DNA of 62,089 nt from an uncultured bacterium (lineage in GTDB: Bacteria; Patescibacteriota; Minisyncoccia; Phycocordibacterales; PALSA-1337). The translations under genes and the position numbers were made by a program. The stretch is from positions 1 to 62,089 of the forward strand of contig CAIUUK010000013.1 in NCBI GenBank assembly GCA_903902315.1. The letters are read 5' to 3'. Under the pieces are notes generated by a model. That model had not been told where the DNA came from, did no database searches, and saw only the letters and a list, made by a program, of their open reading frames with translations. Shown piece after piece: positions 960-41,243 of this stretch (positions are counted from its first letter, which is position 1; each line of letters starts with the position of its first letter).

Positions 960-1820
960 TTACTTCAATTTCATTCTTACAGCTTTAATCTCATCGTTTT
1001 GCCTCTTTTTCAGTTCACGCATTTCTTTTTTGTGTCTTGATTGCATCTTTTTAATATCCTCGGCAGGAGGAAGTGATTCCGGATAGATGTTTGACTTAAC
1101 CAAAACACCTCTAACGTTCGTGTTATTTGTAACATGTTCGTTCAATATAGGGCCTTTTCCTTGAAGATTCTTCTTTCTAGTATTCTCTGATGTTATCGCA
1201 GCCGCAAACTCTTTGGCTGAAATAGTTACTTTTGGTAATACGTCCGCCAAAGGGGTATTTTTACCTGCACCTAACTTCCTCTTCATATCGTCTGTTGATT
1301 TGCCTCCAAAAAGTGCTTTATCACCGAAGCTTCTAATCTCTGATAGTCCGCGGCCATCCACACCCCTGCCAAAGACAAGTGCCGCAAAATCTTTTTCAGT
1401 TACGCTTAACTTTTCTCTAGCCGTGAGTCTCTCCAATTCAGTCATTCTCTGTTCAATAAGCTCCATTTTTCTGGTTTGTGTAGCAAAGTATGCTTGAGCG
1501 AAGGCAATCTCAGTCTTTCGGGGGTCGCCATTTAATGTAATTAAATAACAAGCATACCGAGTTAATTTTATGTCATCTATTTCTTTTTCTGCTCCACTGC
1601 CTATACTGACCATCTTCCTGACGCCAGGAAAATGGTCTACAACTGAACCTTTAGATTTTTCACATGCCTCCTTTGCTCTATCAATGGCGGTCTGAAAATT
1701 TTCCCATTTGGTATAACCTAGTAATGGATATAAATCCCTTGCATACCAGTATTCAACACCGTTTTGGCGACGGTTATCATCAAAGGTCTTGTACAAAGTT
1801 TGTAACTGATTAGATTCCAT
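960..1820 (-). CDS. dinD: DNA-damage-inducible protein D-like (DinD, BRO-N-type N-terminal domain)
   Basis: WYARDLYPLLGYTKWENFQTAIDRAKEACEKS...LTRYACYLITLNGDPRK...AQAYFATQTRK is colinear with E. coli DinD as I recall it (WSARQLGKLLGY...RAKEACENS...LSRYACYLVVQNGDP...GQTYFAIQTR). Confidence 0.75.
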   Translation of the reverse strand: MESNQLQTLYKTFDDNRRQNGVEYWYARDLYPLLGYTKWENFQTAIDRAKEACEKSKGSVVDHFPGVRKMVSIGSGAEKEIDDIKLTRYACYLITLNGDPRKTEIAFAQAYFATQTRKMELIEQRMTELERLTAREKLSVTEKDFAALVFGRGVDGRGLSEIRSFGDKALFGGKSTDDMKRKLGAGKNTPLADVLPKVTISAKEFAAAITSENTRKKNLQGKGPILNEHVTNNTNVRGVLVKSNIYPESLPPAEDIKKMQSRHKKEMRELKKRQNDEIKAVRMKLK

Positions 1821-8518: not shown

Positions 8519-9217
8519 ATGTTATATGTATATCACGGACCAGATATAAATAAGTCTCTAGATAAAGCACGAACGCTGGCTAATTCTCTGCGAACAAAGA
8601 GGCCAGATGCTACATATATCGAAGTTGAAAAGGATTCATGGTCACCGTCGATTGTTGAAGAAAATATCGGAGGACAAGGTCTGTTTTCGAGTAAATACAT
8701 CGTCTTTTTAAATCGCGTGACAGAGAGCGCTGATGCAAAAGAATCATTGCCAGATTTGATACAAGTGATGAATGAGTCGACGAATATCTTTATCTTACTG
8801 GAAGCGAAATTAAATACAGATCTAAAAAAAGCAGTTGAGAAATATGCGGAGAAAATCGTGGAGACGGGTGATAAAGGGGAAGGACGACCAGTAAGTCGGG
8901 CCGATGGAGGCCAGGGGTCAGGCAAAGATGAGTTTAATATTTTCGCTTTAGCAGATGCGGTTGGATCTCGAAACACGCTCAAATCCTGGACACTCTACCG
9001 ACAAGCGGTCGACAGCGGTCTTGAAGCCGAGAATATCATCGGTGTACTTTTTTGGAAGGTTAAGTCAATGATTACTGCGACAAATACAAGTAATTATTCA
9101 AACAATGAATTACACACGCTTTTGACTGATTTGATTACCATTTACCATGATGGTCATAGGGGAATAATTAATTCTGAACTGGCACTGGAGAAAAGGATGT
9201 TATCGCTTAAGAATTAG
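8519..9217 (+). CDS. holA: DNA polymerase III delta subunit-like protein
   Basis: Weak call. It rests on size, an N-terminal YVYHGPD-type start, position after polA and general delta-subunit-like helical composition. No strong motif was recognised. Confidence 0.4.
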   Translation: MLYVYHGPDINKSLDKARTLANSLRTKRPDATYIEVEKDSWSPSIVEENIGGQGLFSSKYIVFLNRVTESADAKESLPDLIQVMNESTNIFILLEAKLNTDLKKAVEKYAEKIVETGDKGEGRPVSRADGGQGSGKDEFNIFALADAVGSRNTLKSWTLYRQAVDSGLEAENIIGVLFWKVKSMITATNTSNYSNNELHTLLTDLITIYHDGHRGIINSELALEKRMLSLKN

Positions 9218-9294
9218 AAACAGATATAACTGTGCGGGTTGTGGTACGAAGTTGGAACTATTCTAGCACAAAGCCTATTATGAACATAAGTTAT

Positions 9295-9969
9295 TTATTT
9301 AAGATAATTAATGAAATCTTTACCAAGCTTTGTCAGTCGGTATGACGAGAATCCTCCATCGTAGGTTGCCTCCATGGAACCATTCATTAGGCCGACACTA
9401 TTAAACGTCGAATAGTGTTCAGCGATTTCGTACATTCCGTATGTTTCATTCCTTAACTTCAGAATCATTTCAACTTGGTGTAAATTGAAAAAATTACCTA
9501 ATTTTATATTAGCTGCTCCATCAGGTTGCGACGCAACCCATCTATCAAAAGTTCCGTCAGAATAGATAGAAAGAATGTGCAAATTTTCCTCTGAAAGCTG
9601 ACTAAGAATAAAGTTGAACTTCTCTAGCTCAAATGAACGTTTGTCTTCTGATTTTGTAAATCCACAAAAAATGTCTCGTGCTATTTTTCTTTTATTTTCG
9701 CTTCGCTCGACAATATATTTTTCAAGCATATACACAAATCCGTCTTGAAATTCTTCGGTATTAATAATTTCATCAACAAATATATCAGGTTTGTTTTTAA
9801 CCATTTCGATGAATTCGAGTGCCCTATTTTCTCTAAGTTTCATACCTGCGCCAAATAAAGCCTTACACAAAGCCCAGGCAGCTGCAACACCGGGATGAAT
9901 TGTAGCTGCTATAACATCAGCAGTGCCTAGCGCACTTGCTTTAAGTATTTCCTTATCTACACCGTTCAT
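9295..9969 (-). CDS. Hypothetical protein, 224 aa (element cargo)
   Basis: Clean ORF with its own upstream region. It has a Gly/Ala-rich amphipathic N-terminus (GTADVIAATIHPGVAAAWALCKALFGAG). No family was recognised. Confidence 0.5.
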   Translation of the reverse strand: MNGVDKEILKASALGTADVIAATIHPGVAAAWALCKALFGAGMKLRENRALEFIEMVKNKPDIFVDEIINTEEFQDGFVYMLEKYIVERSENKRKIARDIFCGFTKSEDKRSFELEKFNFILSQLSEENLHILSIYSDGTFDRWVASQPDGAANIKLGNFFNLHQVEMILKLRNETYGMYEIAEHYSTFNSVGLMNGSMEATYDGGFSSYRLTKLGKDFINYLK

Positions 9970-10010
9970 GAAAGTTTGTGGTTACTTTAAGTAATATGTC
10001 ATAGTTTACC

Positions 10011-10044
10011 ATTAAAAAGAACCGCCAGAATTAAATTCTAGCGG
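10011..10044 (-). terminator. Rho-independent terminator of the 10065-11336 gene
   Basis: CCGCCAGAAT / ATTCTAGCGG stem with 9 of 10 bp paired, followed on the reverse strand by TTCTTTTT. Confidence 0.5.
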
Positions 10045-10064
10045 CTCGTGAGAACTAAATGTGA

Positions 10065-11336
10065 TCAATGCCTTGGGAAGGGCTTGCACACTTTCGCTTT
10101 TGCAGCATTGAAGCTGAGGCGAAATTTGTGAACCAATGGCTGTTTGAATGCCACAGGCACCGTAGACAGGTCAACTTTTTTGGGAAGTCGGTCTGTATTC
10201 AGTGTATCCCTCAACCATTGGAAGTAGAGTGGCTTTTGTTTACCAACACTAATTTGCCGACGTTGAGTTGTTTCCGTATCCCACTGTGTTCGGATATAAT
10301 CACCTGTTTTTTCAACGAAGTGAAGACGGATCAAACTTCGCAGAAGTGTGCAACCACAAAAGATTACAATTACACCGACGGCAAACACCACAATCCACAG
10401 TCCTTTATCCTTCCAAAATGCCTCCAAGATTATATCGAGAAGTGTATAAAACAATAGACCAAAGACTGCAATCATCAAAACCGCGGAGCCAGTAATCGGA
10501 TAATATTTTTCTTTTCCGTGTTCACGGTCCCAAACACCGTAGTCGTAACCACGAGTTATATCCCAGTCAACCTGACCAGGATTCCAACTGTGCCAATCCC
10601 AAATGATGTCGAAATCATTGAAGATAGGTTCGGATCGCCAACCAAGGAAGTTTGCCGTCGTTTTTGCTGTGATTAACCAAATGGACGACATTGTTGCCCA
10701 GAGGTATTTTGCAATCACCGCCACAACAAACCAAATAATTGGTTTGAGGCTGAATGCAAAAAACAGCCGTTTTCGGTAGCTGCATTGGTCAGTGGGTTCG
10801 TAACGATGCCAAAGATTAGCCCAGTTCCAGACCCACGATTTCGGTTTCGTTGCAAAGAGTTCTTTTGGTAGACTGATAGTTTTGGTGAAAACCGCAACCA
10901 CATAGCAAGCATCATCTCCATGTTCGAATGATATGCCATGTGTATCGGTATTTCCATTGAGGTCAACATAGTAACAGTAACACCCCGGACGATGTTCCTT
11001 GAGATAGACTTCCATCTTATTCTCGATCACTTGAGAACCGAGACTTGACTTGAGTGCAATGAAAGTCACCGTATGCTTCCCAGCCGAATCGAAACAAATA
11101 AAATCTGAACCGCGGGAAAGCGGAATCAGTTTACGAATTCCATAGCAAGGCTTAGTCTCCGATTCATGCTGGATAATGACCAGAACATGCGTCGGTTGGA
11201 TTTCAGCCAGAGCGTTGTTCACACCGAATTGAATCGGAATGCGTGCAGATTCCAGCACGTCGCTACCACCGTTGAGGATTACTGACAGCTTAGGCTCAGT
11301 AGCCAAAGCACTATTAGTTGTAGTGTTTTTGTTCAT
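10065..11336 (-). CDS. Multi-pass membrane protein with an N-terminal soluble domain, 423 aa (element cargo)
   Basis: The start was set at the MNKNTTTNS Met at 11336, which has AAGGA 8 nt upstream. It has several hydrophobic segments and a Trp-rich loop (DIIWDWHSWNPGQVDWD). No family was recognised. Confidence 0.6.
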   Translation of the reverse strand: MNKNTTTNSALATEPKLSVILNGGSDVLESARIPIQFGVNNALAEIQPTHVLVIIQHESETKPCYGIRKLIPLSRGSDFICFDSAGKHTVTFIALKSSLGSQVIENKMEVYLKEHRPGCYCYYVDLNGNTDTHGISFEHGDDACYVVAVFTKTISLPKELFATKPKSWVWNWANLWHRYEPTDQCSYRKRLFFAFSLKPIIWFVVAVIAKYLWATMSSIWLITAKTTANFLGWRSEPIFNDFDIIWDWHSWNPGQVDWDITRGYDYGVWDREHGKEKYYPITGSAVLMIAVFGLLFYTLLDIILEAFWKDKGLWIVVFAVGVIVIFCGCTLLRSLIRLHFVEKTGDYIRTQWDTETTQRRQISVGKQKPLYFQWLRDTLNTDRLPKKVDLSTVPVAFKQPLVHKFRLSFNAAKAKVCKPFPRH

Positions 11337-11439
11337 AATTATTCCTTTTTCAAATGCTGATATACGATACCAGCTTACAATTTTGCTAAATACTAGCATA
11401 TAATACATAGCTTTGTCAAGTTTGTGCGGTTCAGTCAAG

Positions 11440-11760
11440 TACGTGTCATTTGTGGCTCAATGTGGCTGTATATATGGTTCGTCATTCGCGTCCAAGCGGT
11501 GCATGGTCGCGGTCACGGAAGCGCGGGGATGTCCGCTTCTTCTATAGCGGTTTGTTCGCGCTTAGCGCATATTGACATGATGTAGCGCACACGATTGCGA
11601 AGCAATGGTGGAAAGCGCGAAGTCATGTGGATATGCGCGTTAAAAGCGCGCCACATACTCTCTTGGAAGCGGACATGCAAAGCGCTTCCATTGTCTGTTC
11701 AACACTACAGGATATATACGCGACCACGCTCGGCTTGGCGCGCCACTCACTCAAAATCCC
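11440..11760. other. G+C-rich, hairpin-dense non-coding hub; candidate origin or single-strand origin
   Basis: No credible ORF. There are many AGCGC/GCGCG motifs. Hairpins include GAAGCG...CGCTTC at 11518-11540 and TGGAAGCG...CGCTTCCA at 11664-11690. ATGTCCGCTTC at 11529-11539 is an inverted repeat of GAAGCGGACAT at 11666-11676. Confidence 0.35.
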
Positions 11761-11788
11761 TTGACTTCATTTTAGACAGGAATATAAT
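11761..11788 (+). promoter_or_regulatory. Near-consensus sigma70-type promoter facing the Rep and recombinase genes
   Basis: TTGACT at 11761-11766, a 16-nt spacer, then TATAAT at 11783-11788. Confidence 0.5.
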
Positions 11789-12057
11789 TGTGACAGGTAC
11801 AGAGCTCTCTGATTTGAACTGCACAACTTAATCTAAATAAATTTAATAATAAATAAGTCCTTTTTTAGGCACTAGCAGCATCGGTAGCCATCATTGAATG
11901 GCATCCCTCTTTTTCAAATACCGGCTAGATACATACATAATATAAATAATCATAATAAATATCAGTGCTTTAAAATAGGAACTTCGTAAAAGGGTTCTTT
12001 TTTCGTTTGTTTCTTTTTTGTCCATCTCACAGTCTTTTCCTGTACCTAATTACTTAG

Positions 12058-12279
12058 GTGCCTTTTACATTCTCCAAAAGTTTAATACAAGACTGCATCA
12101 AGAACTTCAAAGAAGAAAATGAGGTCGACATTTCTGCTGAAACAGCCAATGAATATTTGAACAATATGGCTGGTTTGTATTTGGCATTTACGGAAAAGCG
12201 TACCGACCCGACCGCTTTAGCGGTGGGCGGGACGCTTCCGATCGACGGTGACTTAACCCTAGGTGTTAGTAACACCTAG
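12058..12279 (+). CDS. Small hypothetical protein, 73 aa, GTG start
   Basis: ORF-track ORF immediately upstream of Rep. Its stop lies inside the 12257-12281 palindrome. Coding status is uncertain. Confidence 0.3.
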   Translation: MPFTFSKSLIQDCIKNFKEENEVDISAETANEYLNNMAGLYLAFTEKRTDPTALAVGGTLPIDGDLTLGVSNT

Positions 12280-12281
12280 GG
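12257..12281 (+). promoter_or_regulatory. Perfect 12+12 inverted repeat just upstream of Rep; candidate nick-site/double-strand-origin hairpin or terminator
   Basis: CCCTAGGTGTTA g TAACACCTAGGG, 19 nt before the Rep ATG. It is followed by the small palindrome GCAAATTGC at 12288-12296. Confidence 0.4.
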
Positions 12282-12299
12282 TACGTTGCAAATTGCACC

Positions 12300-13343
12300 A
12301 TGATAGACACTATTAAATTCTTAATACCGATGACTGACATCGATCTTGTCGAGCAGTTAAAGAGTAACCTTCAGAGGTTTCGAAAGGATGATCTTCGCAC
12401 TGGCAAAATGGAGTTTGAATTTTTCAGTAGTAATATTGAGCTCGGTTCATATCGTAGGACGGTAGCCATAAAATCGACCAATGTCCCACAAGGATTCTTT
12501 ATTGAATTTTCTGTGCCAAAGTATGCCAAAGGAAATAACGTGGAGATGATATATCCGCATGAGCTTCCAGATATCATAGCGCGACTATACGATGAACTAT
12601 GCACCCACATGAATTACAAACTCCTCCATTATTCAGAGTGGCCAATATATCGTCTGGACGTCTGCTACAACTGGCTTTTCAAGAATGAGAATGAAGCCGT
12701 ATATGCCATGGACTTCTTGAGACGTATCGATTTTCCTCGAAAGAAAAAATACACTTACGACACTTCGGTCATGTTCAAAGGCAGTGTGTACACGGTGAAA
12801 TTCTATGCCAAAGGTTCTGAATTCAAAGCACATGATTTTGACAAGATTGAGCTCAATCGGGCTATGACATTACAGATGTGGGCTGATCGAATAGTTAGAT
12901 TCGAAGTCAATTTGAAAAGGGTTTACCTTCAAGATTTTTTTGGATTGGATACAGTATATTTGAAAGATGTTACTGATGATCAGACCATAGAAGACATATT
13001 GAAATACTTTCTAGAAGAAAAGGTCTTCTTTTACCTCAACGCCAACAGTATGACCGATGAAAACATCAAGCAGATCCTATTCGAGAACTTCACCAAGACC
13101 AAGGCGACTAGACTTTACCAATTTTACAAGGATTATTACTTCAATGAGGAGATGAAAAATATGTTTGTGCGGGGTGGCCTCAACCGAAGTACGATTTATA
13201 GATATTCAAAAGATTTGAAAGAGGTTGGCATAGGTATTTCAATCGAAAAAACATCTAACAATAAAAATATTTTAGAGCAATTGATCATCCCATCACCCAC
13301 TTCCAAATTTGATTTATTTGATTATTCGTTAGGGCAGGTATAA
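12300..13343 (+). CDS. Rolling-circle replication initiator, filamentous-phage gene II / CRI-like
   Basis: MIDTIKFLIPM... N-terminus and RIVRFEVNLKRVYLQDFFGL resemble f1 gene II as I recall it (MIDMLVLRLPF..., GLVRFEARIKTRYLKSFGL). The size is consistent at 347 aa. Confidence 0.6.
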   Translation: MIDTIKFLIPMTDIDLVEQLKSNLQRFRKDDLRTGKMEFEFFSSNIELGSYRRTVAIKSTNVPQGFFIEFSVPKYAKGNNVEMIYPHELPDIIARLYDELCTHMNYKLLHYSEWPIYRLDVCYNWLFKNENEAVYAMDFLRRIDFPRKKKYTYDTSVMFKGSVYTVKFYAKGSEFKAHDFDKIELNRAMTLQMWADRIVRFEVNLKRVYLQDFFGLDTVYLKDVTDDQTIEDILKYFLEEKVFFYLNANSMTDENIKQILFENFTKTKATRLYQFYKDYYFNEEMKNMFVRGGLNRSTIYRYSKDLKEVGIGISIEKTSNNKNILEQLIIPSPTSKFDLFDYSLGQV

Positions 13344-13354
13344 AATTATCCATC

Positions 13355-14842
13355 ATGAAATATATTGCGTACTACAGAAAATCCACAGAAGCAGAAGATA
13401 GACAACTTCTGTCATTGGACTCGCAAGAACGAGAGGCTCTTTCACTTGCTGAAAAACACAATCTACTCATCACCAAAACATTCAAAGAGAGCATGTCTGC
13501 CAAGTCATCTGGTCGTCCTCTATTCAACGAAATGATGAAAATGATTCAATCTGGTAAAGCTGATAGCATTGTCTGCTGGAAACTTGATCGCCTCGCCAGA
13601 AACTTCATTGATGGTGGTCTCATCATTGATCTACTTCAAAGAGGTATCATCAAGGAGATACAGACTTCAGAGGGCGTGCACAAACAAGGTGATGACGTCA
13701 TGCTCATGGCTATCAAATTTGGTATGGCTAATCAATACAGCAGGAATCTAAGCGTCGACGTCAAACGAGGCAACAGAGAAAAGCTATCTCGCGGAGGATG
13801 GCCAAATCGTGCTCCTCTTGGATTCTTAAACGACAAAGCGAACAGGACATTGGTTATTGATCCAACACGCGCAAAATATATACCACGGGCTTTTGAGCTT
13901 TACCTCACTGGCTCTCATGGCTTTAAAGATATTTCAATTATTCTTTACAATGAAGGATTTAGAACCAGAACAGATAAAATTGTCGACAAAAGCTATATTC
14001 AAAGGATTCTTTCATCTATTTTCTACACTGGTATCATGGAACGCGAGGGCAAATTCTATCAAGGTAACCACACGCCACTCATCTCAAAAGAAACATTCGA
14101 AAGGGCTCAGGACGTCATGAATAACCGCTCACATCCGAAACCACAACGACTATTCTTTCCACTTCGTGGATTCATGAAATGTGAAAACTGTGGTTGTGCT
14201 TTAACTGCTTCACTTAAAAAAGGTCATCACTATTACTACTGCACCGGTAATAGAAAAGAATGTGAGGAACACAAAAGCTACATGCGAGAAAATTATCTAT
14301 ATGAAAAAGTATCCGACATTTTTGAGGGGATTGCATTTAGTGAAAGTAAAATTGAACTCATGTATCAAGCCGCCAAGGAAAAGAGTAACAATGATAGCGC
14401 ATACAGTGATCACGTATTACAGAGGCTTCAGACACAGCTAAACTCGCTCAAGACGAAAGAATCTCTCTTACTCGATACTTTCCTCGCTGAACAAATTTCA
14501 AAGGAATTATATGACAGTAAAATGCTTAGACTGCACAATGAGAAAATCGTACTTGAAAAGCAGATTTCAGAAGCCAGATCCAAACAACCAGTCAATGTGT
14601 TGGAACCGACAAAGAAAGTATTTCTAGAAGCCAGTAGAGCCAGGAATGAGTTTCTCACTGGTAATGATCTCAAAAAACGAAATGTTCTAGAAAATCTCTG
14701 TTGGAACCTTTCCATCAAAGAGAAAAATATTCATACAGTTAGCCTCAAAAGTCCTTTTGACCTTATGCTAAAAACACCTAAATACGCCTCTTTCGAACTA
14801 TTGTGCGCCCAGTTGGATTCGAACCAACGACCCACTCCTTAA
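13355..14842 (+). CDS. Large serine recombinase
   Basis: Resolvase-type N-terminus YYRKSTEAEDRQLLSLDSQ...WKLDRLARN, a recombinase domain, and a Cys-rich zinc ribbon CENCGC...YYYC followed by a coiled coil. The last 39 nt overlap tRNA-Lys antisense. Confidence 0.9.
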   Translation: MKYIAYYRKSTEAEDRQLLSLDSQEREALSLAEKHNLLITKTFKESMSAKSSGRPLFNEMMKMIQSGKADSIVCWKLDRLARNFIDGGLIIDLLQRGIIKEIQTSEGVHKQGDDVMLMAIKFGMANQYSRNLSVDVKRGNREKLSRGGWPNRAPLGFLNDKANRTLVIDPTRAKYIPRAFELYLTGSHGFKDISIILYNEGFRTRTDKIVDKSYIQRILSSIFYTGIMEREGKFYQGNHTPLISKETFERAQDVMNNRSHPKPQRLFFPLRGFMKCENCGCALTASLKKGHHYYYCTGNRKECEEHKSYMRENYLYEKVSDIFEGIAFSESKIELMYQAAKEKSNNDSAYSDHVLQRLQTQLNSLKTKESLLLDTFLAEQISKELYDSKMLRLHNEKIVLEKQISEARSKQPVNVLEPTKKVFLEASRARNEFLTGNDLKKRNVLENLCWNLSIKEKNIHTVSLKSPFDLMLKTPKYASFELLCAQLDSNQRPTP

Positions 14843-14876
14843 AAGGGAGTTGCTCTACCAGCTGAGCTATGGGCGC
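14804..14876 (-). tRNA. tRNA-Lys (anticodon TTT)
   Basis: Hand fold: GCGCCCA/TGGGCGC acceptor, GCTC/GAGC D stem, ACTCC/GGAGT anticodon stem with loop CTTTTAA, GTTGG-TTCGAAT-CCAAC T arm. CCA is not encoded. Confidence 0.9.
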
Positions 14877-14904
14877 GAAAACTAATTATTGATACCTACC
14901 AAAA

Positions 14905-14991
14905 CAGCTATGGGCGCAAGCGAGGAAAAATCACGAGCGTCATACGCTCGTAGTTATTCCGAGCGTAGCGCCTATATGGATATATGGGCGC
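14905..14991 (-). repeat. Degenerate copies of the tRNA-Lys 5' end upstream of the tRNA
   Basis: AGCTATGGGCGC at 14906-14917 is identical to 14865-14876. Similarity extends through TGGTAG of the D arm. A third copy, ATGGGCGC, lies at 14984-14991. The hairpin ACGAGCGT-cat-ACGCTCGT lies between them. Confidence 0.6.
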
Positions 14992-36812: not shown

Positions 36813-37031
36813 ATGAAATTTGGTCTTAGAAAATTTTCGTTAAACAAAAGAATCGCAGCGCGTACTTCATGGAAGAGGGTGGTTAGACATTCTATAGGTT
36901 TAAAAGCTCCACGGGGTTTTGGTTGGTTCACGGACCCTAAGAGAGCGCTTTATAACAGAGTCTATAATCGTACAAGTGTAAGTGTGGATAAATTGGTTAT
37001 TAGTATTTTCAAGCTATTTTTTCCTAGGTAG
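36813..37031 (+). CDS. Small basic hypothetical protein, 72 aa
   Basis: ORF-track ORF whose 3' end overlaps the recombinase stop region. Coding status is uncertain. Confidence 0.3.
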   Translation: MKFGLRKFSLNKRIAARTSWKRVVRHSIGLKAPRGFGWFTDPKRALYNRVYNRTSVSVDKLVISIFKLFFPR

Positions 37032-38604
37032 TTTGAGGATTATAAAGTTCTCTTGCGAAACTGAAGTCTTTGATATTTCCAGTCATAATCTCTGGGCTGA
37101 CACTGCTCAAATTGATTGTCTTTTGATGTAATAGCTCCTGAAATAGCGGGGAATAATGTTCAGCTATGATGATTCCGTCTTTTACTTCAAATTTATCAAA
37201 GAAAAAGTCGATTAAGCGTTTTTGTATCCTCTCTGGTGCTTTAAGATATGTCTGATAAATATCTCTCGTGAAGTTGAGGATCTCAGCAAGTGCATCGACA
37301 TTGATTTCCTTTGTTTTCTTGAGTTCACTGATCTTATGGTTAATTCTGTCTATATGACCTGATATCTCGTCTCTAATACGCGTATAGTCGGGTTTAGACA
37401 GTGTCTCATCGAGAAGTCTATCCTCAGCAGTCTTGAGTTTTGCTTCCCACGCATTCTTTTGGTTTAACAAGCCTCGAATATTTGTATCGTAAGATTGCTT
37501 CCTTGTTTCATATGTCTCTTTCACTTTAGCGATGATTGAGTCTATAAATCCTCGGTCGAGTTGGACATTTTTGAACTTATTAGCTACCTGTTTTTCGAGG
37601 TCTGACTTTTCAATATACTTACCACATCCAGTTGGGTTAGAGCAGTGATAGTATGCTTTGCCTTTTGCGAGGTGCCATTCTGCTGTGTATCTCCGCTTAT
37701 GAATGGCACAGAAGATGTAACCAGTAAGGAGCCAGAAGTATTTTCTTCGTCTGCAACGATTGTTAGTATTTCCATCTATGATGTTTTTCACTTGATTGAA
37801 AGTGGTTTCATCGATGAGGTGTTCGTGTTTACCGTCTTTCACATTGATATCTCGCCAGTGTATCTCTCCGAGATAGATTCGATTTCTCAGCATATCGTAA
37901 AACATGCTTGGCGCTAACTTCTTATTTGTATGAGAAACAAGACCTTTCTCATACATCATATCGTTTAATTCGAGGGCATTATATTGACCAGTCGCATAGA
38001 GTTTAAATGCTTCGGTTACAAGGGGTCCAACTTTTGGATGGGGGACAATAATTTTTTTAGCTACTTTCTCACAGAACTGATCTGGATTTTTACAATTTGT
38101 GAAGCCTATCGGAGCATGCGTTGGATAGTACCCAGCCAGAGCTTTTGCGTCTGTGGCTTGTCTGGTTTTTTCTCTAGTGTTGTCTGAGTGATATTGATTG
38201 ATTGTGGCAAACATATTGTCAGCCATGATCGAGCAGGCGTCTTCACCAGAGGATTGTCCGTTTAGATATTTTAGCTGAACTCCATTTGAAAGAAATGTGT
38301 GTCTCAAGAATGAGTGGTCAACAATATTTCGTGCTAGTCGATCCGAATGAGTAACGTATATTATCGATATCTCTCTATTCTTGGCGAGTTCAATGACTTC
38401 CTGAATACCTTTTCGGTTTAGGTTCTTTCCACTTTTACCCTCATCTTTAATAATCTTGATGTCAGTATAGCCATCACGAATAGCCGCCGTACGGCACTGT
38501 TGTTCTTGGTAGTCGAGAGAAATTCCATTGTCCGCCTGATCGTCAGTGGAAACTCTATTGTACCCAAGTGCAGTATTTTTATTTTTAGGGATTTTCCGTT
38601 CCAT
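37024..38604 (-). CDS. Large serine recombinase
   Basis: GYNRVSTDDQ catalytic Ser context, THSDRLARN, a recombinase domain, a Cys cluster (C...YHCSNPTGCGKY) and a coiled-coil tail. Confidence 0.9.
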   Translation of the reverse strand: MERKIPKNKNTALGYNRVSTDDQADNGISLDYQEQQCRTAAIRDGYTDIKIIKDEGKSGKNLNRKGIQEVIELAKNREISIIYVTHSDRLARNIVDHSFLRHTFLSNGVQLKYLNGQSSGEDACSIMADNMFATINQYHSDNTREKTRQATDAKALAGYYPTHAPIGFTNCKNPDQFCEKVAKKIIVPHPKVGPLVTEAFKLYATGQYNALELNDMMYEKGLVSHTNKKLAPSMFYDMLRNRIYLGEIHWRDINVKDGKHEHLIDETTFNQVKNIIDGNTNNRCRRRKYFWLLTGYIFCAIHKRRYTAEWHLAKGKAYYHCSNPTGCGKYIEKSDLEKQVANKFKNVQLDRGFIDSIIAKVKETYETRKQSYDTNIRGLLNQKNAWEAKLKTAEDRLLDETLSKPDYTRIRDEISGHIDRINHKISELKKTKEINVDALAEILNFTRDIYQTYLKAPERIQKRLIDFFFDKFEVKDGIIIAEHYSPLFQELLHQKTINLSSVSPEIMTGNIKDFSFARELYNPQTT

Positions 38605-38694: not shown

Positions 38695-40056
38695 TTAATT
38701 AATAAAGTGAATCGGTCCCGTGTGTGGGTCACTTGGTTTTTCTGTGGTTGTAGAAGGTAGAGGTGACAGTCCACGTATTTCTCGACACTCGTTACTAATA
38801 AACCACTCAAACTCTTTCTTCAAATGAATTTCTTCTTCTGGTTGTCCGACACCTCCACGACTTTCTTTTGCAATGTTGCATATACCGAGTATTTCAAGAG
38901 TATTCATCTCTTTGAGAGCTGTAGGTTTTGATTGGTTTAATTTTTTTTCAACCTCGTTCGTCTTCATAATGCCGTTGTAGTCAATTAATGCTCTGAAAAG
39001 ACTTGAACGGCTTGTATAACCACTATCAAAACAAAGTTCTATAGTTGCCTTGAGATCACTTCGTTCAATCTGTTTTCTTCCGTGTACGAGAGCGTAACCA
39101 CGACACTGGTTATATAAGAGTTGGTTGATGCGGTCAGATTTTTCAATAGTAGGAGTTGCATAGCTATATTTTGTCTCACCCCAATCATCTGAGGACCACA
39201 CATTAACTGCACCTCTCAATTTAGCTAGTAGCCCAGAACAACGCGCAATGATTGTCATAACATCTTCTGGATCATTCTCGTTATTCCAAATAATGCCGTT
39301 TGGATTTTCTGACCACAAAGTTTTAACGAAAGCGTTAGTTATCTCCCTACAAGCAGTTTCTTTTCCTTTGTAAGCCTTACTCTTTAATTGTTTAACGAGT
39401 TCTTCGTCCGTTTTGTTACGTGAATTCATTCGAAGAAAGAAAAGCCTTGAGCCTAGATTTCCCATGATCTTGAAGATCTTTGGTGATATGGGTGTTGAAG
39501 CTCCTAACATCATAAATAGGTATTCGCCTTTATATCCTCTTTGACCATGAACTCCCGATTCCGTGTCCAGTCCCTCGCCGTCGAGCACACGGGTGAGGAG
39601 ACCGAGCAGTTCAGTCAAATGTTCTTCTTTCTTAGAAAACATTGTTGCCATATCTCTAAGTAAGAACATTTTATATCTGATACGTGGTAAAAGGTCGACT
39701 TTTTCAATCTGATCTCTTGAGACACTTGGAGAGTTGGTTACAAATGATGCTGGTGTAAATTTGTCTGTTGCATAGGTGAGACCCTCAATTCCATCAAAGA
39801 AGTTCACTACGATGGTCTTTCCAGCCGCTGGTACATCTACAAGAACTAATGCAAATGGATTAGTGATCTCTTTGATAAGAATTTGAGCGATGATTGAGAG
39901 CCCTATTTCGGCAGGAAAGAGAAGGTCTGGAAAGTTGTTCTTGATAACCTTCTGCCACTCATTAAAATAAACTGGCTTCTCTGGTTTCTCAAACTGTTTG
40001 ATACGCCCGATTTTTTCTGGTCCGTCTTGTGGAAGCATGGTGCTAATGTGTTCCAT
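38695..40056 (-). CDS. P-loop NTPase-like protein with a C-terminal winged-helix-like region; putative replication or helicase-loader function
   Basis: Walker A-like VDVPAAGKT and Walker B-like KMFLLRDMATMF. Its operon position lies between a DNA-binding protein and the recombinase. Family not identified. Confidence 0.45.
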   Translation of the reverse strand: MEHISTMLPQDGPEKIGRIKQFEKPEKPVYFNEWQKVIKNNFPDLLFPAEIGLSIIAQILIKEITNPFALVLVDVPAAGKTIVVNFFDGIEGLTYATDKFTPASFVTNSPSVSRDQIEKVDLLPRIRYKMFLLRDMATMFSKKEEHLTELLGLLTRVLDGEGLDTESGVHGQRGYKGEYLFMMLGASTPISPKIFKIMGNLGSRLFFLRMNSRNKTDEELVKQLKSKAYKGKETACREITNAFVKTLWSENPNGIIWNNENDPEDVMTIIARCSGLLAKLRGAVNVWSSDDWGETKYSYATPTIEKSDRINQLLYNQCRGYALVHGRKQIERSDLKATIELCFDSGYTSRSSLFRALIDYNGIMKTNEVEKKLNQSKPTALKEMNTLEILGICNIAKESRGGVGQPEEEIHLKKEFEWFISNECREIRGLSPLPSTTTEKPSDPHTGPIHFIN

Positions 40057-41086: not shown

Positions 41087-41243
41087 ACAACTGAATACCG
41101 AAAGTAGCCTAAACCACTAACGTGGCATGGTGAATAACCCAGTCAAGGACAAAGAACCCATCGTGTGGGATTGCCTTGACTGGTCATATCGGGAAACCGG
41201 TATGGGGGACTTCGGTCCTCACCCCGCGGTGGGCTTTTTGTTT
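41087..41243 (+). ncRNA. Highly structured RNA leader or sRNA ending in a terminator 10 nt before the 41253 ATG
   Basis: Putative promoter: TCGACA at 41052-41057 and TG-n-TATATT at 41072-41080. Perfect 10-bp stem 41139-41148/41174-41183. GAAA-capped 8-bp hairpin at 41185-41204. UUCG-capped 6-bp hairpin at 41205-41220. CACC-ccgc-GGTG followed by GGCTTTTT. Confidence 0.45.

What the first reader, a model, noticed from the sequence alone, without database searches (positions are those of the whole stretch)
9255..14876. Integrated rolling-circle replicon (gene II/CRI-like Rep plus large serine recombinase) docked against tRNA-Lys
Between the holA-like gene and tRNA-Lys lies a self-contained module of about 5.5 kb.
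- Two unknown genes on the reverse strand have their own promoter and terminator.
- A G+C-rich hairpin-dense non-coding hub sits between divergent promoters.
- A small ORF, a Rep resembling filamentous-phage gene II (MIDTIKFLIPM..., VRFEVNLKRVYL) and a large serine recombinase follow. The recombinase reading frame runs into the tRNA.

No morphogenesis genes are present (no Zot-like ATPase, no coat proteins). It therefore looks like an integrative plasmid-like ssDNA replicon rather than an inovirus prophage. If the host is a Patescibacteria-type organism, as gene content suggests, autonomous replicons are poorly documented there. A serine-recombinase-integrated RCR element would be an unusual combination.
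Basis: partly seen in the sequence, partly recalled or inferred. Interest (0 to 1): 0.7.

Follow-up and report, generated by a model that had tools for sequence, protein, structure and literature searches.

The report
Integrative rolling-circle element at tRNA-Lys
A 5.6-kb mobile element carrying a filamentous-phage-type replication gene and a large serine integrase, but no virus-particle genes, is inserted at the 3' end of a tRNA-Lys gene in a Patescibacteria genome; it belongs to an apparently undescribed family whose integrase seems to read the universal tRNA T-loop and so can land at many different tRNA genes.

Summary
Between a holA-like gene and tRNA-Lys(UUU) lies a 5,571-bp insertion with att cores TGTGCG at 9231 and 14802. 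It encodes a small conserved protein (p73), a gene-II/Cri-type Rep (above the Pfam and NCBIfam cut-offs, with an RCR-initiator fold) and a three-domain large serine recombinase whose ORF runs 40 nt into the tRNA.

About 40 Patescibacteria loci carry the same p73-Rep-Int core, and 18 were delimited. Each sits at a tRNA 3' end, across at least 11 tRNA species, with a 4-9-nt core matching that tRNA and a conserved 16-mer inside the left end. In 18/18, a T-loop-like heptamer lies 5 bp further from the core in attP than in the tRNA, which is the canonical serine-integrase signature.

A 94%-identical Rep sits at tRNA-Ile elsewhere, and a close host relative (L176) has the same tRNA-Lys without the element.

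Cargo is hypervariable and often defence-like. No Zot or coat genes were found, although Rep relatives at ~30% identity are true inoviruses. A ~260-nt hairpin with strong covariation is a candidate single-strand origin.

Not shown: excision, circles, the Rep nick site, or replication. Integrative RCR elements and phiRSM phages are precedents, so this is a new variant of a known kind.

The parts
9218..9230 (.). attL, host-side arm (B): 13 nt between the holA stop codon and the core
   Evidence: Window/L176/L174 homology ends at the holA stop codon, 9215-9217.
9231..9236 (.). attL core TGTGCG, identical to the attR core; the crossover is presumed to lie within it
   Evidence: Longest shared run between the left and right junctions. 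The core co-varies with the target tRNA in 18 elements.
9237..9275 (.). attL element-side arm (P'): GGTTGT + conserved 16-mer GGTACGAAGTTGGAAC (9243-9258) + TATTCTAGCAC
   Evidence: The 16-mer (<=3 mismatches) occurs at the left end of nearly all related elements and only once in the 62-kb window. Consensus from 38 distinct sites. The heptamer TTGGAAC lies 5 bp further from the core than the tRNA T-loop heptamer.
9295..9969 (-). Cargo gene p224, function unknown (weak Abi_alpha-like C-terminus)
   Evidence: ORF. Pfam Abi_alpha E = 0.074, sub-threshold. Family of 257 representative clusters without a consistent domain. Found next to Rep/Int only in this strain.
10019..10047 (-). Terminator-like hairpin (13-bp stem + T run) between the two cargo genes
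10065..11336 (-). Cargo gene p457 (423 aa from M35): integral membrane protein with a beta-rich N-domain, 3-4 TM helices and a Trp-rich loop; function unknown
   Evidence: ORF. The promoter at 11419-11390 lies inside the long ORF version, so the start is probably 11336. TM analysis. Only 9 homologues, some in non-element contexts. Low-confidence model, no fold match.
11390..11419 (-). Promoter-like site for the cargo genes (TTGACA-18-TAGTAT with TG)
11487..11745 (.). Long imperfect hairpin (~260 nt), G+C-rich; candidate single-strand origin (or packaging signal)
   Evidence: DNA fold -75 kcal/mol, z = -5.5. Equivalent 300-340-nt hairpins in L093, L008, L010, L095 and L096 despite sequence divergence. 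Alifold: 72 pairs, 33 with compensatory double changes. No Rfam match.
11761..11788 (+). Promoter-like site for the p73-Rep-Int operon (TTGACT-16-TATAAT)
   Evidence: Best hit of the scan, 11/12. Conserved in L093, L008, L010 and L095.
11891..12025 (-). 44-aa ORF with one hydrophobic segment; coding status uncertain
   Evidence: ORF. 88% aa identity in L093 only. Absent from L008/L010. One TM-like segment.
12058..12279 (+). p73, small acidic protein conserved with Rep and Int throughout the family; candidate directionality factor or replication/regulatory accessory (inferred)
   Evidence: tblastn hits immediately upstream of Rep in >30 loci. No family assignment.
12300..13343 (+). Rep, gene-II/Cri (Phage_CRI, rep_II_X) rolling-circle initiator
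   Evidence: AF2 model pLDDT 89. The only significant PDB fold hit is 4cij, RCR initiator RepSTK1, E = 3.4e-5. Best viral matches are Inoviridae G2P. Invariant Y164/Y169/K171/E174 in the motif YTVKFYAKGSEF.
13355..14842 (+). Large serine recombinase (integrase); the last 40 nt overlap the tRNA
   Evidence: Resolvase + Recombinase + Zn_ribbon_recom above cut-offs, PHROG 95 integrase 2e-79. YYRKST with Ser10, Cys276/279/296/303. Overlap with the tRNA.
14770..14801 (.). attR element-side arm (P), which also encodes the Int C-terminus
   Evidence: Conserved pattern AAAGCACCnAAAAAnGnTnCTTTTTCAnnAnT abutting the tRNA 3' end in 18 loci.
14802..14807 (.). attR core TGTGCG
   Evidence: Window/L176 homology resumes at 14800.
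14803..14876 (-). tRNA-Lys(UUU), intact host gene. Its 3' acceptor/T-arm (14808-14830 on the + strand) is the attB right half-site (B')
   Evidence: ARAGORN. Rfam tRNA 75.3 bits. Near-identical tRNA (two mismatches in the D-arm region) in L176 without the element. T-loop heptamer TTCGAAC 16 nt from the core start.

Best explanation
Window 9231-14807 is an integrated copy of a small (5,571 bp core-to-core) mobile element. It belongs to an apparently undescribed Patescibacteria family whose invariant core is the operon p73 - Rep (gene-II/Cri type) - large serine recombinase.

Shown by comparison:
- The element is an insertion at the 3' end of tRNA-Lys(UUU).
- attL and attR share a short core (TGTGCG) that matches the tRNA 3' end.
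- Related elements sit in the same geometry at >=11 other tRNA species.

Inferred mechanism:
1. The serine integrase recombines a ~60-90-bp attP (P arm = its own 3' coding end; P' arm = tRNA-acceptor-like bases plus GGTACGAAGTTGGAAC) with an attB whose right half is the tRNA acceptor/T-arm. Its zinc-ribbon domain reads the T-loop heptamer (TTCGAAC) in attB and the look-alike TTGGAAC 5 bp further out in attP.
2. Because the T-loop is universal, changing the few core-proximal bases retargets the element to another tRNA.
3. Integration leaves the tRNA intact and swaps the last ~12-16 codons of Int (the model predicts 495 aa integrated and 499 aa circular).
4. After excision, which probably needs a directionality factor (p73 is a candidate), the circle is replicated by rolling-circle replication started by Rep.
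5. The ~260-nt conserved hairpin serves as the single-strand origin for complementary-strand synthesis.
6. The variable region carries accessory, often defence-type, genes. Here that is a two-gene module of unknown function (p224 plus membrane protein p457).

The element lacks all virion genes, so it behaves as an integrative plasmid-like replicon. How it moves between cells is unknown.
For: Gene identities.

Insertion status:
- L176 (PolA 87%, holA 86%) keeps the whole backbone and a near-identical tRNA-Lys but has no Rep/Int. Homology breaks at the holA stop and resumes at ATTGTGCGCCC.
- Four related hosts (W, L174, L176, L171) each have different content at this junction.

Mobility:
- L093 has Rep 94% / Int 90% and the identical 27-nt P' site, but lies at tRNA-Ile(gat) with different cargo.

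Family-wide att architecture:
- P arm plus tRNA 3' end in all loci.
- Conserved 16-mer at left ends.
- 18 delimited elements of 4.5-7.6 kb with a 4-9-nt core starting -3 to +2 from the tRNA 3' end.
- Exactly 5-bp outward shift of the heptamer in P' vs B' in 18/18, matching the attP/attB ZD-motif rule of Rutherford et al. (PMC3783163).
- The motif is absent from integrase-less inovirus relatives.

No morphogenesis genes:
-, versus Zot present in 28-33%-identity Rep relatives.

Hairpin:
- (33 of 72 pairs with compensatory changes). It lies between divergent promoters.

Host phylum.
Against: - There is no direct evidence of excision or a free circle. All 8 contigs carrying the end gene p224 are integrated, the degenerate attB/attP/attL/attR pattern found nothing in JGI metagenomes, and no related contig with this Rep clade is circular.
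- No exact empty site exists. L176 has three other small genes (1.28 kb) where the element sits, so the left half of attB is unverified.
- Element G+C equals the host's, so it may be long-resident.
- The left half-sites (P and B arms) show no inverted copy of the heptamer expected for a symmetric serine-integrase site.
- The Rep nick site / double-strand origin was not found.
- The hairpin exists only in the subclade with Rep >=76% identity. Other members carry a ~290-aa putative DNA-binding protein instead.
- The role of p73 is a guess.
Confidence: 0.7

Rival explanations
1. Satellite of a filamentous phage. The element supplies only Rep, an origin and integration functions. It is packaged as ssDNA by a helper inovirus of the same host, with the long hairpin acting as packaging signal, as RS1 and TLC-Knphi1 do in Vibrio cholerae.
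For: - The Rep's nearest non-family relatives (28-33% identity) are genuine small inoviruses of 4.6-6.2 kb with Zot. That is the same size range as the elements, 4.5-7.6 kb.
- A long orientation-specific hairpin is what packaging signals look like.
- No other transfer function is encoded.
- Roux et al. report inoviruses in CPR (PMC6813254).
Against: - No helper (Zot) was found in the 62-kb window or next to any family member.
- The hairpin is missing from most of the family.
- The hosts of the small inovirus contigs are unknown.
- IMG/VR contains no close relative of this Rep clade (best 28%). Packaged satellites would be expected to appear in viromes.
Confidence: 0.2
2. The element is no longer active in this strain. 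It is a fixed remnant whose Rep and Int are retained or decaying, and the locus is simply a variable genomic islet at a tRNA hotspot.
For: - Every contig of this strain shows the integrated state.
- Composition is fully ameliorated.
- The tRNA-Lys junction is a general hotspot, holding unrelated islands in L171 and L174.
Against: - All core ORFs are intact and full length.
- attL and attR are both intact, with the canonical geometry.
- The promoter and hairpin are conserved.
- A 94%-identical Rep module is at another tRNA in another genome, which implies recent activity of this lineage.
Confidence: 0.15
3. Rep is not a vegetative replication initiator. It acts as a relaxase-like nickase that mobilises the excised element for transfer, as MobT/Rep_trans proteins do in ICEs and IMEs of Firmicutes.
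For: - The Rep model's only PDB fold match is a Rep_trans-family protein (4cij).
- Rep_trans relatives act as relaxases in Tn916/ICEBs1-type elements (PMC5704250).
Against: - No coupling protein, T4SS or FtsK-like Tra gene is present in the element or recurrent in the family. One FtsK_gamma hit occurred among 92 cargo proteins.
- In ICEs the same proteins also drive RCR of the excised form (PMC5704250), so this is not exclusive.
- By sequence the protein falls in the phage gene-II/X family, not MobT.
Confidence: 0.07
4. Degraded inovirus prophage that has lost its structural and assembly genes.
For: Rep is of the inovirus type. A 44-aa ORF with one hydrophobic segment (11891-12025) loosely resembles a coat protein.
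Against: - The same gene-poor architecture, bounded by intact att sites and of consistent size, recurs in >=18 independent elements at different tRNAs.
- None has Zot, although Pfam detects Zot in the distant relatives.
- The 44-aa ORF is conserved only in the nearest relative.
Confidence: 0.03

Closest known systems
phiRSM1/phiRSM3 filamentous phages of Ralstonia (Inoviridae) with serine-recombinase integration
   Same: They combine a gene-II-type Rep with an element-encoded serine recombinase. attP/attB share a short core at the 3' end of a tRNA gene (13 nt of tRNA-Ser) (PMC4471427).
   Different: - phiRSM is a complete inovirus with coat and Zot-type genes, and its recombinase is a small resolvase/invertase-type enzyme.
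- The element here has no virion genes.
- The enzyme here is a three-domain large serine recombinase.
- The family here uses >=11 tRNA species.
Filamentous-phage satellites RS1 and TLC-Knphi1 of Vibrio cholerae (own knowledge; Pfam Phage_CRI is named after the TLC Cri protein)
   Same: They are small (~3-5 kb) integrated elements with a phage-type RCR initiator and no morphogenesis genes.
   Different: The satellites integrate at dif using host XerCD and depend on known helper phages. This element brings its own serine integrase, targets tRNA genes, and has no identified helper.
AICEs (actinomycete integrative and conjugative elements, e.g. pSAM2)
   Same: They are integrated elements at tRNA genes that excise and replicate by rolling circle from their own Rep. 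A minority use serine recombinases, including a Mycobacterium group at tRNA-Leu (PMC3218068).
   Different: - AICEs are larger (~9-24 kb).
- They carry FtsK-like Tra transfer genes and HUH-type RepSA.
- They are confined to Actinobacteria.
- This element has a gene-II/Rep_trans-fold Rep and no transfer gene, and its host is a Patescibacterium.
Phage large serine integrases (A118/LI, Bxb1, phiC31, TP901-1, SPbeta) and SCCmec Ccr recombinases
   Same: Domain architecture is the same, and CcrA/CcrB/XisF are the best NCBIfam neighbours. The short crossover core and the 5-bp inward shift of the ZD motif in attB relative to attP also match (PMC3783163).
   Different: - NCBIfam scores are far below the equivalog cut-offs, so this is a separate clade.
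- attB is a tRNA 3' end, with the T-loop apparently serving as the ZD motif.
- attP overlaps the integrase's own stop region.
- The left half-sites lack the expected symmetry.
Integrons (only as an analogy, for the multi-site arrays seen in relatives)
   Same: They are directly repeated recombination sites separating one-gene cassettes next to a recombinase gene (L011: 10 sites).
   Different: Integrons use a tyrosine recombinase, attI, and folded attC sites. Here the repeat is a 35-nt O-P' half-att site of a serine integrase, cassettes lie in both orientations, and the window itself has a single unit.

Membership tests
Large serine recombinase (serine integrase) | N-terminal resolvase catalytic domain with the nucleophilic Ser in a YxRxS motif | tested here: met
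   PF00239 70 bits vs cut-off 23.3. N-terminus MKYIAYYRKST with Ser10.
Large serine recombinase (serine integrase) | Recombinase domain plus zinc-ribbon domain C-terminal to the catalytic domain | tested here: met
   PF07508 46.6 bits (cut-off 21.1); PF13408 28.3 bits (cut-off 25.3). Cys276/279/296/303.
Large serine recombinase (serine integrase) | Coiled-coil motif inserted in the zinc-ribbon domain that controls directionality | not tested
   Residues ~335-440 read as a long heptad-rich helical stretch, but no coiled-coil prediction or structure was made.
Large serine recombinase (serine integrase) | Short att sites with a minimal identical core, and the ZD motif 5 bp closer to the centre in attB than in attP | tested here: met
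   For the right half-sites: cores of 4-9 nt and a heptamer shift of exactly 5 bp in 18/18 (rule from PMC3783163).
Large serine recombinase (serine integrase) | Imperfect dyad symmetry of each att site (left half-site mirrors the right) | tested here: not met
   No inverted copy of the P' motif was found in P or B arms. This lowers confidence in the detailed binding model, not in family membership of the protein.
Gene-II/Cri (Phage_CRI, rep_II_X) rolling-circle initiators | Match to the family models above curated thresholds | tested here: met
   PF05144 57.9 bits (cut-off 21.7), positions 1-213 of 232. TIGR01629 40.1 bits (cut-off 29). PHROG 702.
Gene-II/Cri (Phage_CRI, rep_II_X) rolling-circle initiators | RCR-initiator fold | tested here: met
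   AF2 model pLDDT 89. The only significant PDB hit is 4cij (RepSTK1), E = 3.4e-5, prob 1.0, though TM is only 0.29-0.36. Inoviridae G2P models give TM 0.54-0.65.
Gene-II/Cri (Phage_CRI, rep_II_X) rolling-circle initiators | Catalytic tyrosine | tested here: inconclusive
   Y51, Y164 and Y169 are invariant in 27 sequences, and Y169 lies in KFYxKGxEF. Assignment as the nucleophile rests on resemblance recalled from Rep_trans proteins and was not tested.
Gene-II/Cri (Phage_CRI, rep_II_X) rolling-circle initiators | Cognate double-strand origin with a nick site | tested here: inconclusive
   No conserved nick-site candidate was identified. Hairpin apical loops are not conserved, and the conserved 16-mer tracks Int, not Rep.
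Inovirus (filamentous phage) prophage | pI/Zot-type morphogenesis ATPase | tested here: not met
   No Pfam or PHROG hit in the element. No tblastn hit in the window with four Zot queries. None among the families listed for 92 cargo proteins of relatives. Positive control: Zot was found in L065 and L127-L129.
Inovirus (filamentous phage) prophage | Major and minor coat proteins and an ssDNA-binding protein | tested here: not met
   Only one 44-aa ORF with a hydrophobic segment, conserved in a single relative. There is no set of small TM ORFs and no pIII-like gene, unlike L127-L129.
Filamentous-phage satellite (RS1 / TLC type) | Phage-type Rep without morphogenesis genes, integrated in the chromosome | tested here: met
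Filamentous-phage satellite (RS1 / TLC type) | Packaging and transfer by a helper filamentous phage | not testable with these tools
   No helper in the window. Testing this would need virome or experimental data.
AICE / ICE / IME (integrative elements with RCR-type Rep) | Site-specific integrase with attB at a tRNA 3' end, plus own RCR initiator | tested here: met
   Definition from PMC3218068.
AICE / ICE / IME (integrative elements with RCR-type Rep) | Conjugative transfer or mobilisation functions (Tra/FtsK-like, T4SS, relaxase/oriT) | tested here: not met
   None in the element and none recurrent in the family.

The most novel reading that the evidence does not exclude
The p73-Rep-Int unit is the shuttle of a serine-integrase-based cassette-accretion system specific to Patescibacteria.
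- The integrase uses the universal tRNA T-loop as its attB zinc-ribbon motif, so it can retarget to essentially any tRNA by changing a few core bases.
- Successive visits, or trans-mobilised mini-circles, deposit single-gene (often defence) cassettes. Each is tagged by a 35-nt O-P' half-site, and together they build integron-like arrays at tRNA genes (10 sites in L011, 3 in L008, 2 in five other distinct loci).
- The conserved P' block, which is longer than a canonical half-site, would then have a second role, for example in cassette excision or as a Rep-related signal.
Probability: 0.2. Interest if true: 0.85.

Novelty: new variant of a known kind. Interest (0 to 1): 0.66.

Why it matters
Patescibacteria (CPR) form a very large, mostly uncultured part of bacterial diversity. 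They have almost no documented plasmids and no genetic tools.

What this family offers:
- A compact, sequence-defined replicon candidate: Rep plus a structured origin-like hairpin.
- A serine integrase with explicit attP and attB sequences. These are the parts needed for integration or shuttle vectors in these organisms.
- Elements that carry restriction, abortive-infection-like and other conflict genes, so they are probably a main route by which these tiny genomes exchange defence functions.

For recombinase biology, an integrase whose attB motif is the universal tRNA T-loop would explain how one integrase lineage hops among at least 11 tRNA species. It would also be a natural example of retargeting by changing only core-proximal bases, which is relevant to engineering serine integrases.

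If the cassette arrays in relatives are made by this enzyme, they would be a serine-recombinase counterpart of integrons.

Tried and rejected
1. I first took the 8-mer GAACTATT (9255-9262 and 14795-14802) as the att core. I rejected this once the family comparison showed the conserved P' block starts at 9231 and the shared core is TGTGCG.
2. A Smith-Waterman search for a P' arm as the inverted repeat of the P arm gave only background scores.
3. Strain-level empty site or circular form: exact-protein look-ups of holA, DoxX and p224 returned only integrated contigs. The full 347-aa Rep is not on record because gene callers start it at M11.
5. Rfam at permissive threshold gave nothing for the hairpin or elsewhere in the element except the tRNA.
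6. A PDB sequence search with the Rep profile gave no hit.
7. PADLOC and NCBIfam gave nothing for p224, p457, p44 or p73, apart from a meaningless 15-bit hit.
8. The p457 structure model was low-confidence, and the fold search gave only generic FN3-like matches, E >= 0.07.
9. The idea that the 16-mer doubles as the Rep origin was not supported, because the motif is absent from the integrase-less inovirus relatives.
10. A P-arm weight matrix on internal array sites gave background scores except at L008:2011, so the simple 'stack of complete attP sites' model was not supported.
The phylum is inferred from relatives.

Full report
**1. What is in the sequence**

- The 347-aa protein matches Pfam Phage_CRI over essentially the whole N-terminal domain model (57.9 bits; cut-off 21.7). 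It also has a weak G2P_X_C tail, PHROG 702 'replication protein' (1.5e-28) and NCBIfam rep_II_X (40.1 bits; cut-off 29).
- An AlphaFold model built on 27 homologues is confident (pLDDT 89, pTM 0.84). Its only significant PDB neighbour is 4cij, a rolling-circle initiator of the Rep_trans family (E = 3.4e-5). Its best viral neighbours are Inoviridae G2P proteins (TM up to 0.65).
- The 495-aa protein has all three large-serine-recombinase domains above cut-off. It also has the YYRKS(10)T catalytic motif and four zinc-ribbon cysteines.
- Its ORF overlaps tRNA-Lys(UUU) by 40 nt.
- The flanks are a holA-like gene and DoxX.
- Element G+C (0.402) equals the window's (0.395).

**2. The non-coding hub**

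Positions ~11487-11745 fold into one long imperfect hairpin (DNA parameters: -75 kcal/mol, z = -5.5 against shuffles).

- It sits between the two best promoter-like sites of the region. These are 11419-11390 on the minus strand (inside the long version of the 457-aa ORF, so that gene probably starts at 11336) and 11761-11788 on the plus strand.
- The plus-strand promoter and the hairpin are conserved in the closest relatives.
- Six elements with Rep >=76% identity each have a 300-340-nt hairpin at this position, even where the primary sequence is unrelated.
- A five-sequence consensus fold has 72 pairs, 33 of them maintained by changes on both sides.
- No Rfam family matches.
- Apical loops are not conserved, so the hairpin is unlikely to present the Rep nick site.
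- It lies outside both predicted transcription units.

I therefore read it as a single-strand DNA signal, most likely a single-strand origin (inference). More distant family members lack it and instead carry a ~290-aa protein with a sub-threshold OmpR-type winged-helix C-terminus.

**3. The family**

The Rep has 174 homologues at 47-100% identity. Where sources name them, the names are Patescibacteria, Taylorbacteria or Paceibacterota.

- In one-genome-per-species contigs, all hits >=45% identical are Patescibacteria MAGs. The next tier (20-28%) is Burkholderiales, Bacilli and Clostridia.
- IMG/VR has nothing closer than 28%.
- tblastn shows the invariant module p73-Rep-Int in about 40 loci. 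The two cargo genes of the window occur with it only in this strain.
- Homologues of the holA-like flank gene are likewise named Patescibacteria/Paceibacterota.

**4. Attachment sites**

In every locus the last ~32 nt of the Int gene follow a common pattern and abut the 3' end of a minus-strand tRNA, but the tRNA differs. Those seen are Lys-UUU, Ile-GAU, Val-CAC, Gln-CUG, Gln-UUG, Ser-GGA, Ser-UGA, Ser-CGA, Trp, Ala-UGC and Gly-CCC, and Leu-UAG for a distant Int.

- Upstream, a conserved 16-mer GGTACGAAGTTGGAAC (<=3 mismatches) marks the left end. It occurs once in the 62-kb window, at 9243.
- The 11-14 nt before it begin with 4-9 nt identical to the 3' end of that element's own tRNA. Examples are TGTGCG for the window, GTGGGCGGT for the tRNA-Val element and TGCGGGCC for the tRNA-Trp element.
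- This is the attL = B-O-P', attR = P-O-B' pattern.
- Eighteen elements delimited this way are 4.5-7.6 kb long. The window's is 5,571 bp core to core.
- In 18 of 18, the heptamer TT(G/C)GAAC lies exactly 5 bp further from the core in P' than the tRNA T-loop heptamer ((T/C)TCGAAC on this strand) does in B'.
- Rutherford et al. showed that the zinc-ribbon-domain motif occupies positions 16-24 in attP half-sites and 11-19 in attB half-sites, a 5-bp shift (PMC3783163).

I therefore propose that the T-loop is the attB-side ZD motif, which would explain the breadth of tRNA targets.

- The 16-mer is absent from integrase-less inovirus relatives, so it belongs to Int rather than Rep.
- What does not fit is that the left half-sites show no inverted copy of the motif.
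- Reconstructed attP and attB are given. The model predicts that Int changes its last residues on integration (…FELLCAQLDSNQRPTP integrated; …FELLCGLWYEVGTILAQSLL circular).

**5. Is it an insertion, and is it mobile?**

- L176 has PolA 87% and holA 86% identical and complete synteny on both sides. It has a near-identical tRNA-Lys (two mismatches in the D-arm region) but no Rep, Int or P' motif. The window/L176 alignment breaks directly after the holA stop codon and resumes at ATTGTGCGCCC, at the attR core.
- L176 is not a clean empty site. It has three small genes (1.28 kb) in the interval.
- L174/L175 (holA 94%) have a degenerate P'-like relic right after the holA stop, followed by a different island with another serine recombinase, ParB, HTH and a reverse transcriptase.
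- L171 (PolA 62%) has a p457 homologue, Fic and a YafQ/RelB pair around the same tRNA-Lys.

The junction is therefore a hotspot with different content in each of four related genomes.

- L093 carries Rep 94%, Int 90% and an identical 27-nt P' site, but at tRNA-Ile(GAU) in another genomic context and with other cargo. tRNA-Lys, tRNA-Ile and tRNA-Gly all begin GTGCG on this strand, which fits core-directed targeting.
- No free circle was seen. All contigs carrying p224 are integrated. A degenerate junction pattern found nothing in JGI metagenomes, where this strain seems absent.

**6. Not an inovirus**

- The element and the whole window lack Zot.
- A Pfam and PHROG scan of 92 cargo proteins from about 24 elements and arrays listed several defence-type and other families: DUF2726 (5), DUF559 (4), ResIII helicases, EcoRI-type and C5 DNA methylases, GmrSD, Mrr, a DncV-like nucleotidyltransferase, AbiEii-type AAA_21, HepT, Fic, a TOTE primase domain, IS200 and others.
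- No Zot or coat family appeared in those lists. Only the 25 most frequent of 65 Pfam and 107 PHROG families are shown, so the absence is not exhaustive.
- As a positive control, the Rep relatives at 28-33% identity (L065, L127, L128 and the circular L129) are 4.6-6.2-kb inoviruses. They have Zot next to Rep, several tiny single-TM ORFs and a ~500-aa secreted protein.

The integrative family thus shares ancestry with inovirus Reps but has consistently dispensed with virion genes. Decay of a single prophage cannot explain that.

**7. Cargo of the window's element**

- p457 is an integral membrane protein. It has a beta-rich N-domain, 3-4 TM helices and a Trp-rich loop.
- It has only nine homologues, some of them in plain chromosomal contexts.
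- Its model is poor and gives no fold match.
- p224 belongs to a family of 257 representative clusters. The N-terminal 135 residues are conserved and the C-termini vary.
- Its only hints are weak Abi_alpha matches and one Mrr fusion.
- A defence role is a guess by association with the cargo of sister elements.

**8. How it most likely works**

Shown:
- Gene identities.
- Insertion at the tRNA 3' end.
- The family-wide att architecture.
- Different tRNA targets for near-identical cores.
- A conserved structured non-coding element.
- Absence of morphogenesis genes.

Inferred:
- Int-mediated attP x attB integration with the T-loop as ZD motif.
- Excision with help of a directionality factor (p73 is a candidate because it is the only other invariant gene).
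- Rolling-circle replication of the excised circle from an unidentified nick site.
- The hairpin as complementary-strand origin.

Unknown: the route between cells. The main rival is a helper-dependent satellite lifestyle. The element size equals that of the small inoviruses, and the hairpin could be a packaging signal.

**9. Comparison with what is known**

- phiRSM inoviruses combine a gene-II Rep with a small serine recombinase at the 3' end of tRNA-Ser (PMC4471427).
- AICEs such as pSAM2 are integrative rolling-circle replicons at tRNA genes. A Mycobacterium group uses serine recombinases at tRNA-Leu. The same paper calls serine-recombinase integration into tRNA genes 'rare' (PMC3218068).
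- Rep_trans-type proteins serve as relaxases and RCR initiators in ICEs and IMEs (PMC5704250).
- RS1 and TLC satellites are the closest in gene content but use XerCD at dif (own knowledge).
- Roux et al. found inoviruses in CPR by searching for pI/Zot, a screen that would miss these elements (PMC6813254).
- I found no paper describing this family or a T-loop-reading serine integrase. The library searched is incomplete.

I rate it a new variant of a known kind.

**10. Arrays in relatives (not in the window)**

- Seven distinct loci have two or more O-P' sites.
- L011 has ten direct copies of a sharply bounded ~35-nt block. They are 360-1,400 bp apart, each spacer holds one to three small ORFs in either orientation, and the array lies upstream of one complete unit.
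- L008 has a second Int whose P arm is fused to a P' site. After it come a HepT/MNT-like cassette and a Fic + TOTE-primase cassette, then the complete unit.
- Internal sites other than L008:2011 lack an Int-type P arm.

Whether these arrays arise by repeated visits, trans-mobilised cassettes, or accretion and deletion is unresolved. This is the most novel reading left open.

Noticed in passing
L011:1105-6631 (JADGRH010000002.1, Paceibacterota MAG); L008:2011-6225; two sites each in L012, L013/L119 (same sequence), L017, L026, L105: There are direct arrays of the 27-35-nt O-P' half-att site separating one-to-three-gene cassettes: 10 copies in L011 and 3 in L008. They lie upstream of a complete p73-Rep-Int unit. 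The layout is integron-like but uses a serine integrase. Internal sites lack an Int-type P arm, except one that follows a second Int gene.
   Followed up: partly
window 37024-38604 (-): A second large serine recombinase ORF (526 aa), only 25% identical to the element's Int, is followed by a 453-aa ORF at 38695-40056(-). It is not next to a tRNA and may mark another mobile element in the window.
   Followed up: no
window 41106-41220 (+): Rfam LOOT RNA (RF03000) matches at 80.1 bits (gathering score 46.4). This is a structured sRNA of unknown function.
   Followed up: no
window 14877-14917: Relative to L176 the window has a ~35-nt insertion just 5' of tRNA-Lys. It contains an 82%-identical duplicate of the tRNA's first 22 nt (14896-14917 vs 14855-14876). 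This may be a scar of another recombination event at this tRNA.
   Followed up: partly
L008:12505-12680; L109:12492-12665; L011:12503-12525: In these relatives the Int P arm is followed by only the first 19-22 nt of the tRNA 3' end (up to the T-loop). About 140 nt of unrelated DNA follows, and then the complete tRNA. In L011 no tRNA follows at all. This suggests later insertions into the same tRNA end, or carry-over of the B' half-site.
   Followed up: partly
L174:3969-12968 (ERZ27254250 k141_338663; holA 94% identical to the window's): At the position of the window's attL, the closest host relative has a degenerate P'-like relic (GGGAGTGTGGAACGATATTAGAAC). It is followed by a different island with another serine recombinase (452 aa), ParB, an HTH protein and a reverse transcriptase (RVT_1).
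   Followed up: partly
window 9255-9262 and 14795-14802: The 8-mer GAACTATT occurs in direct orientation inside the P' arm and at the end of the P arm. It was first mistaken for the att core. It may be chance (roughly 4% for windows of this size) or part of integrase or accessory-factor recognition.
   Followed up: partly
window ~960-1820 (-) (by offset): According to precomputed Pfam hits, a Bro-N domain protein (a domain common in phages and mobile elements) lies between the YebC-like and RuvB genes in the host backbone.
   Followed up: no
L127, L128, L129 (JGI/ENA metagenome contigs, 5.5-6.2 kb, G+C 0.32-0.35): These are very small complete-looking inoviruses. L129 has a 127-nt terminal overlap, and L128 has the Rep gene at both ends. 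Zot is directly upstream of Rep. They are the nearest non-integrative relatives of the element's Rep, and their host is unknown.
   Followed up: partly
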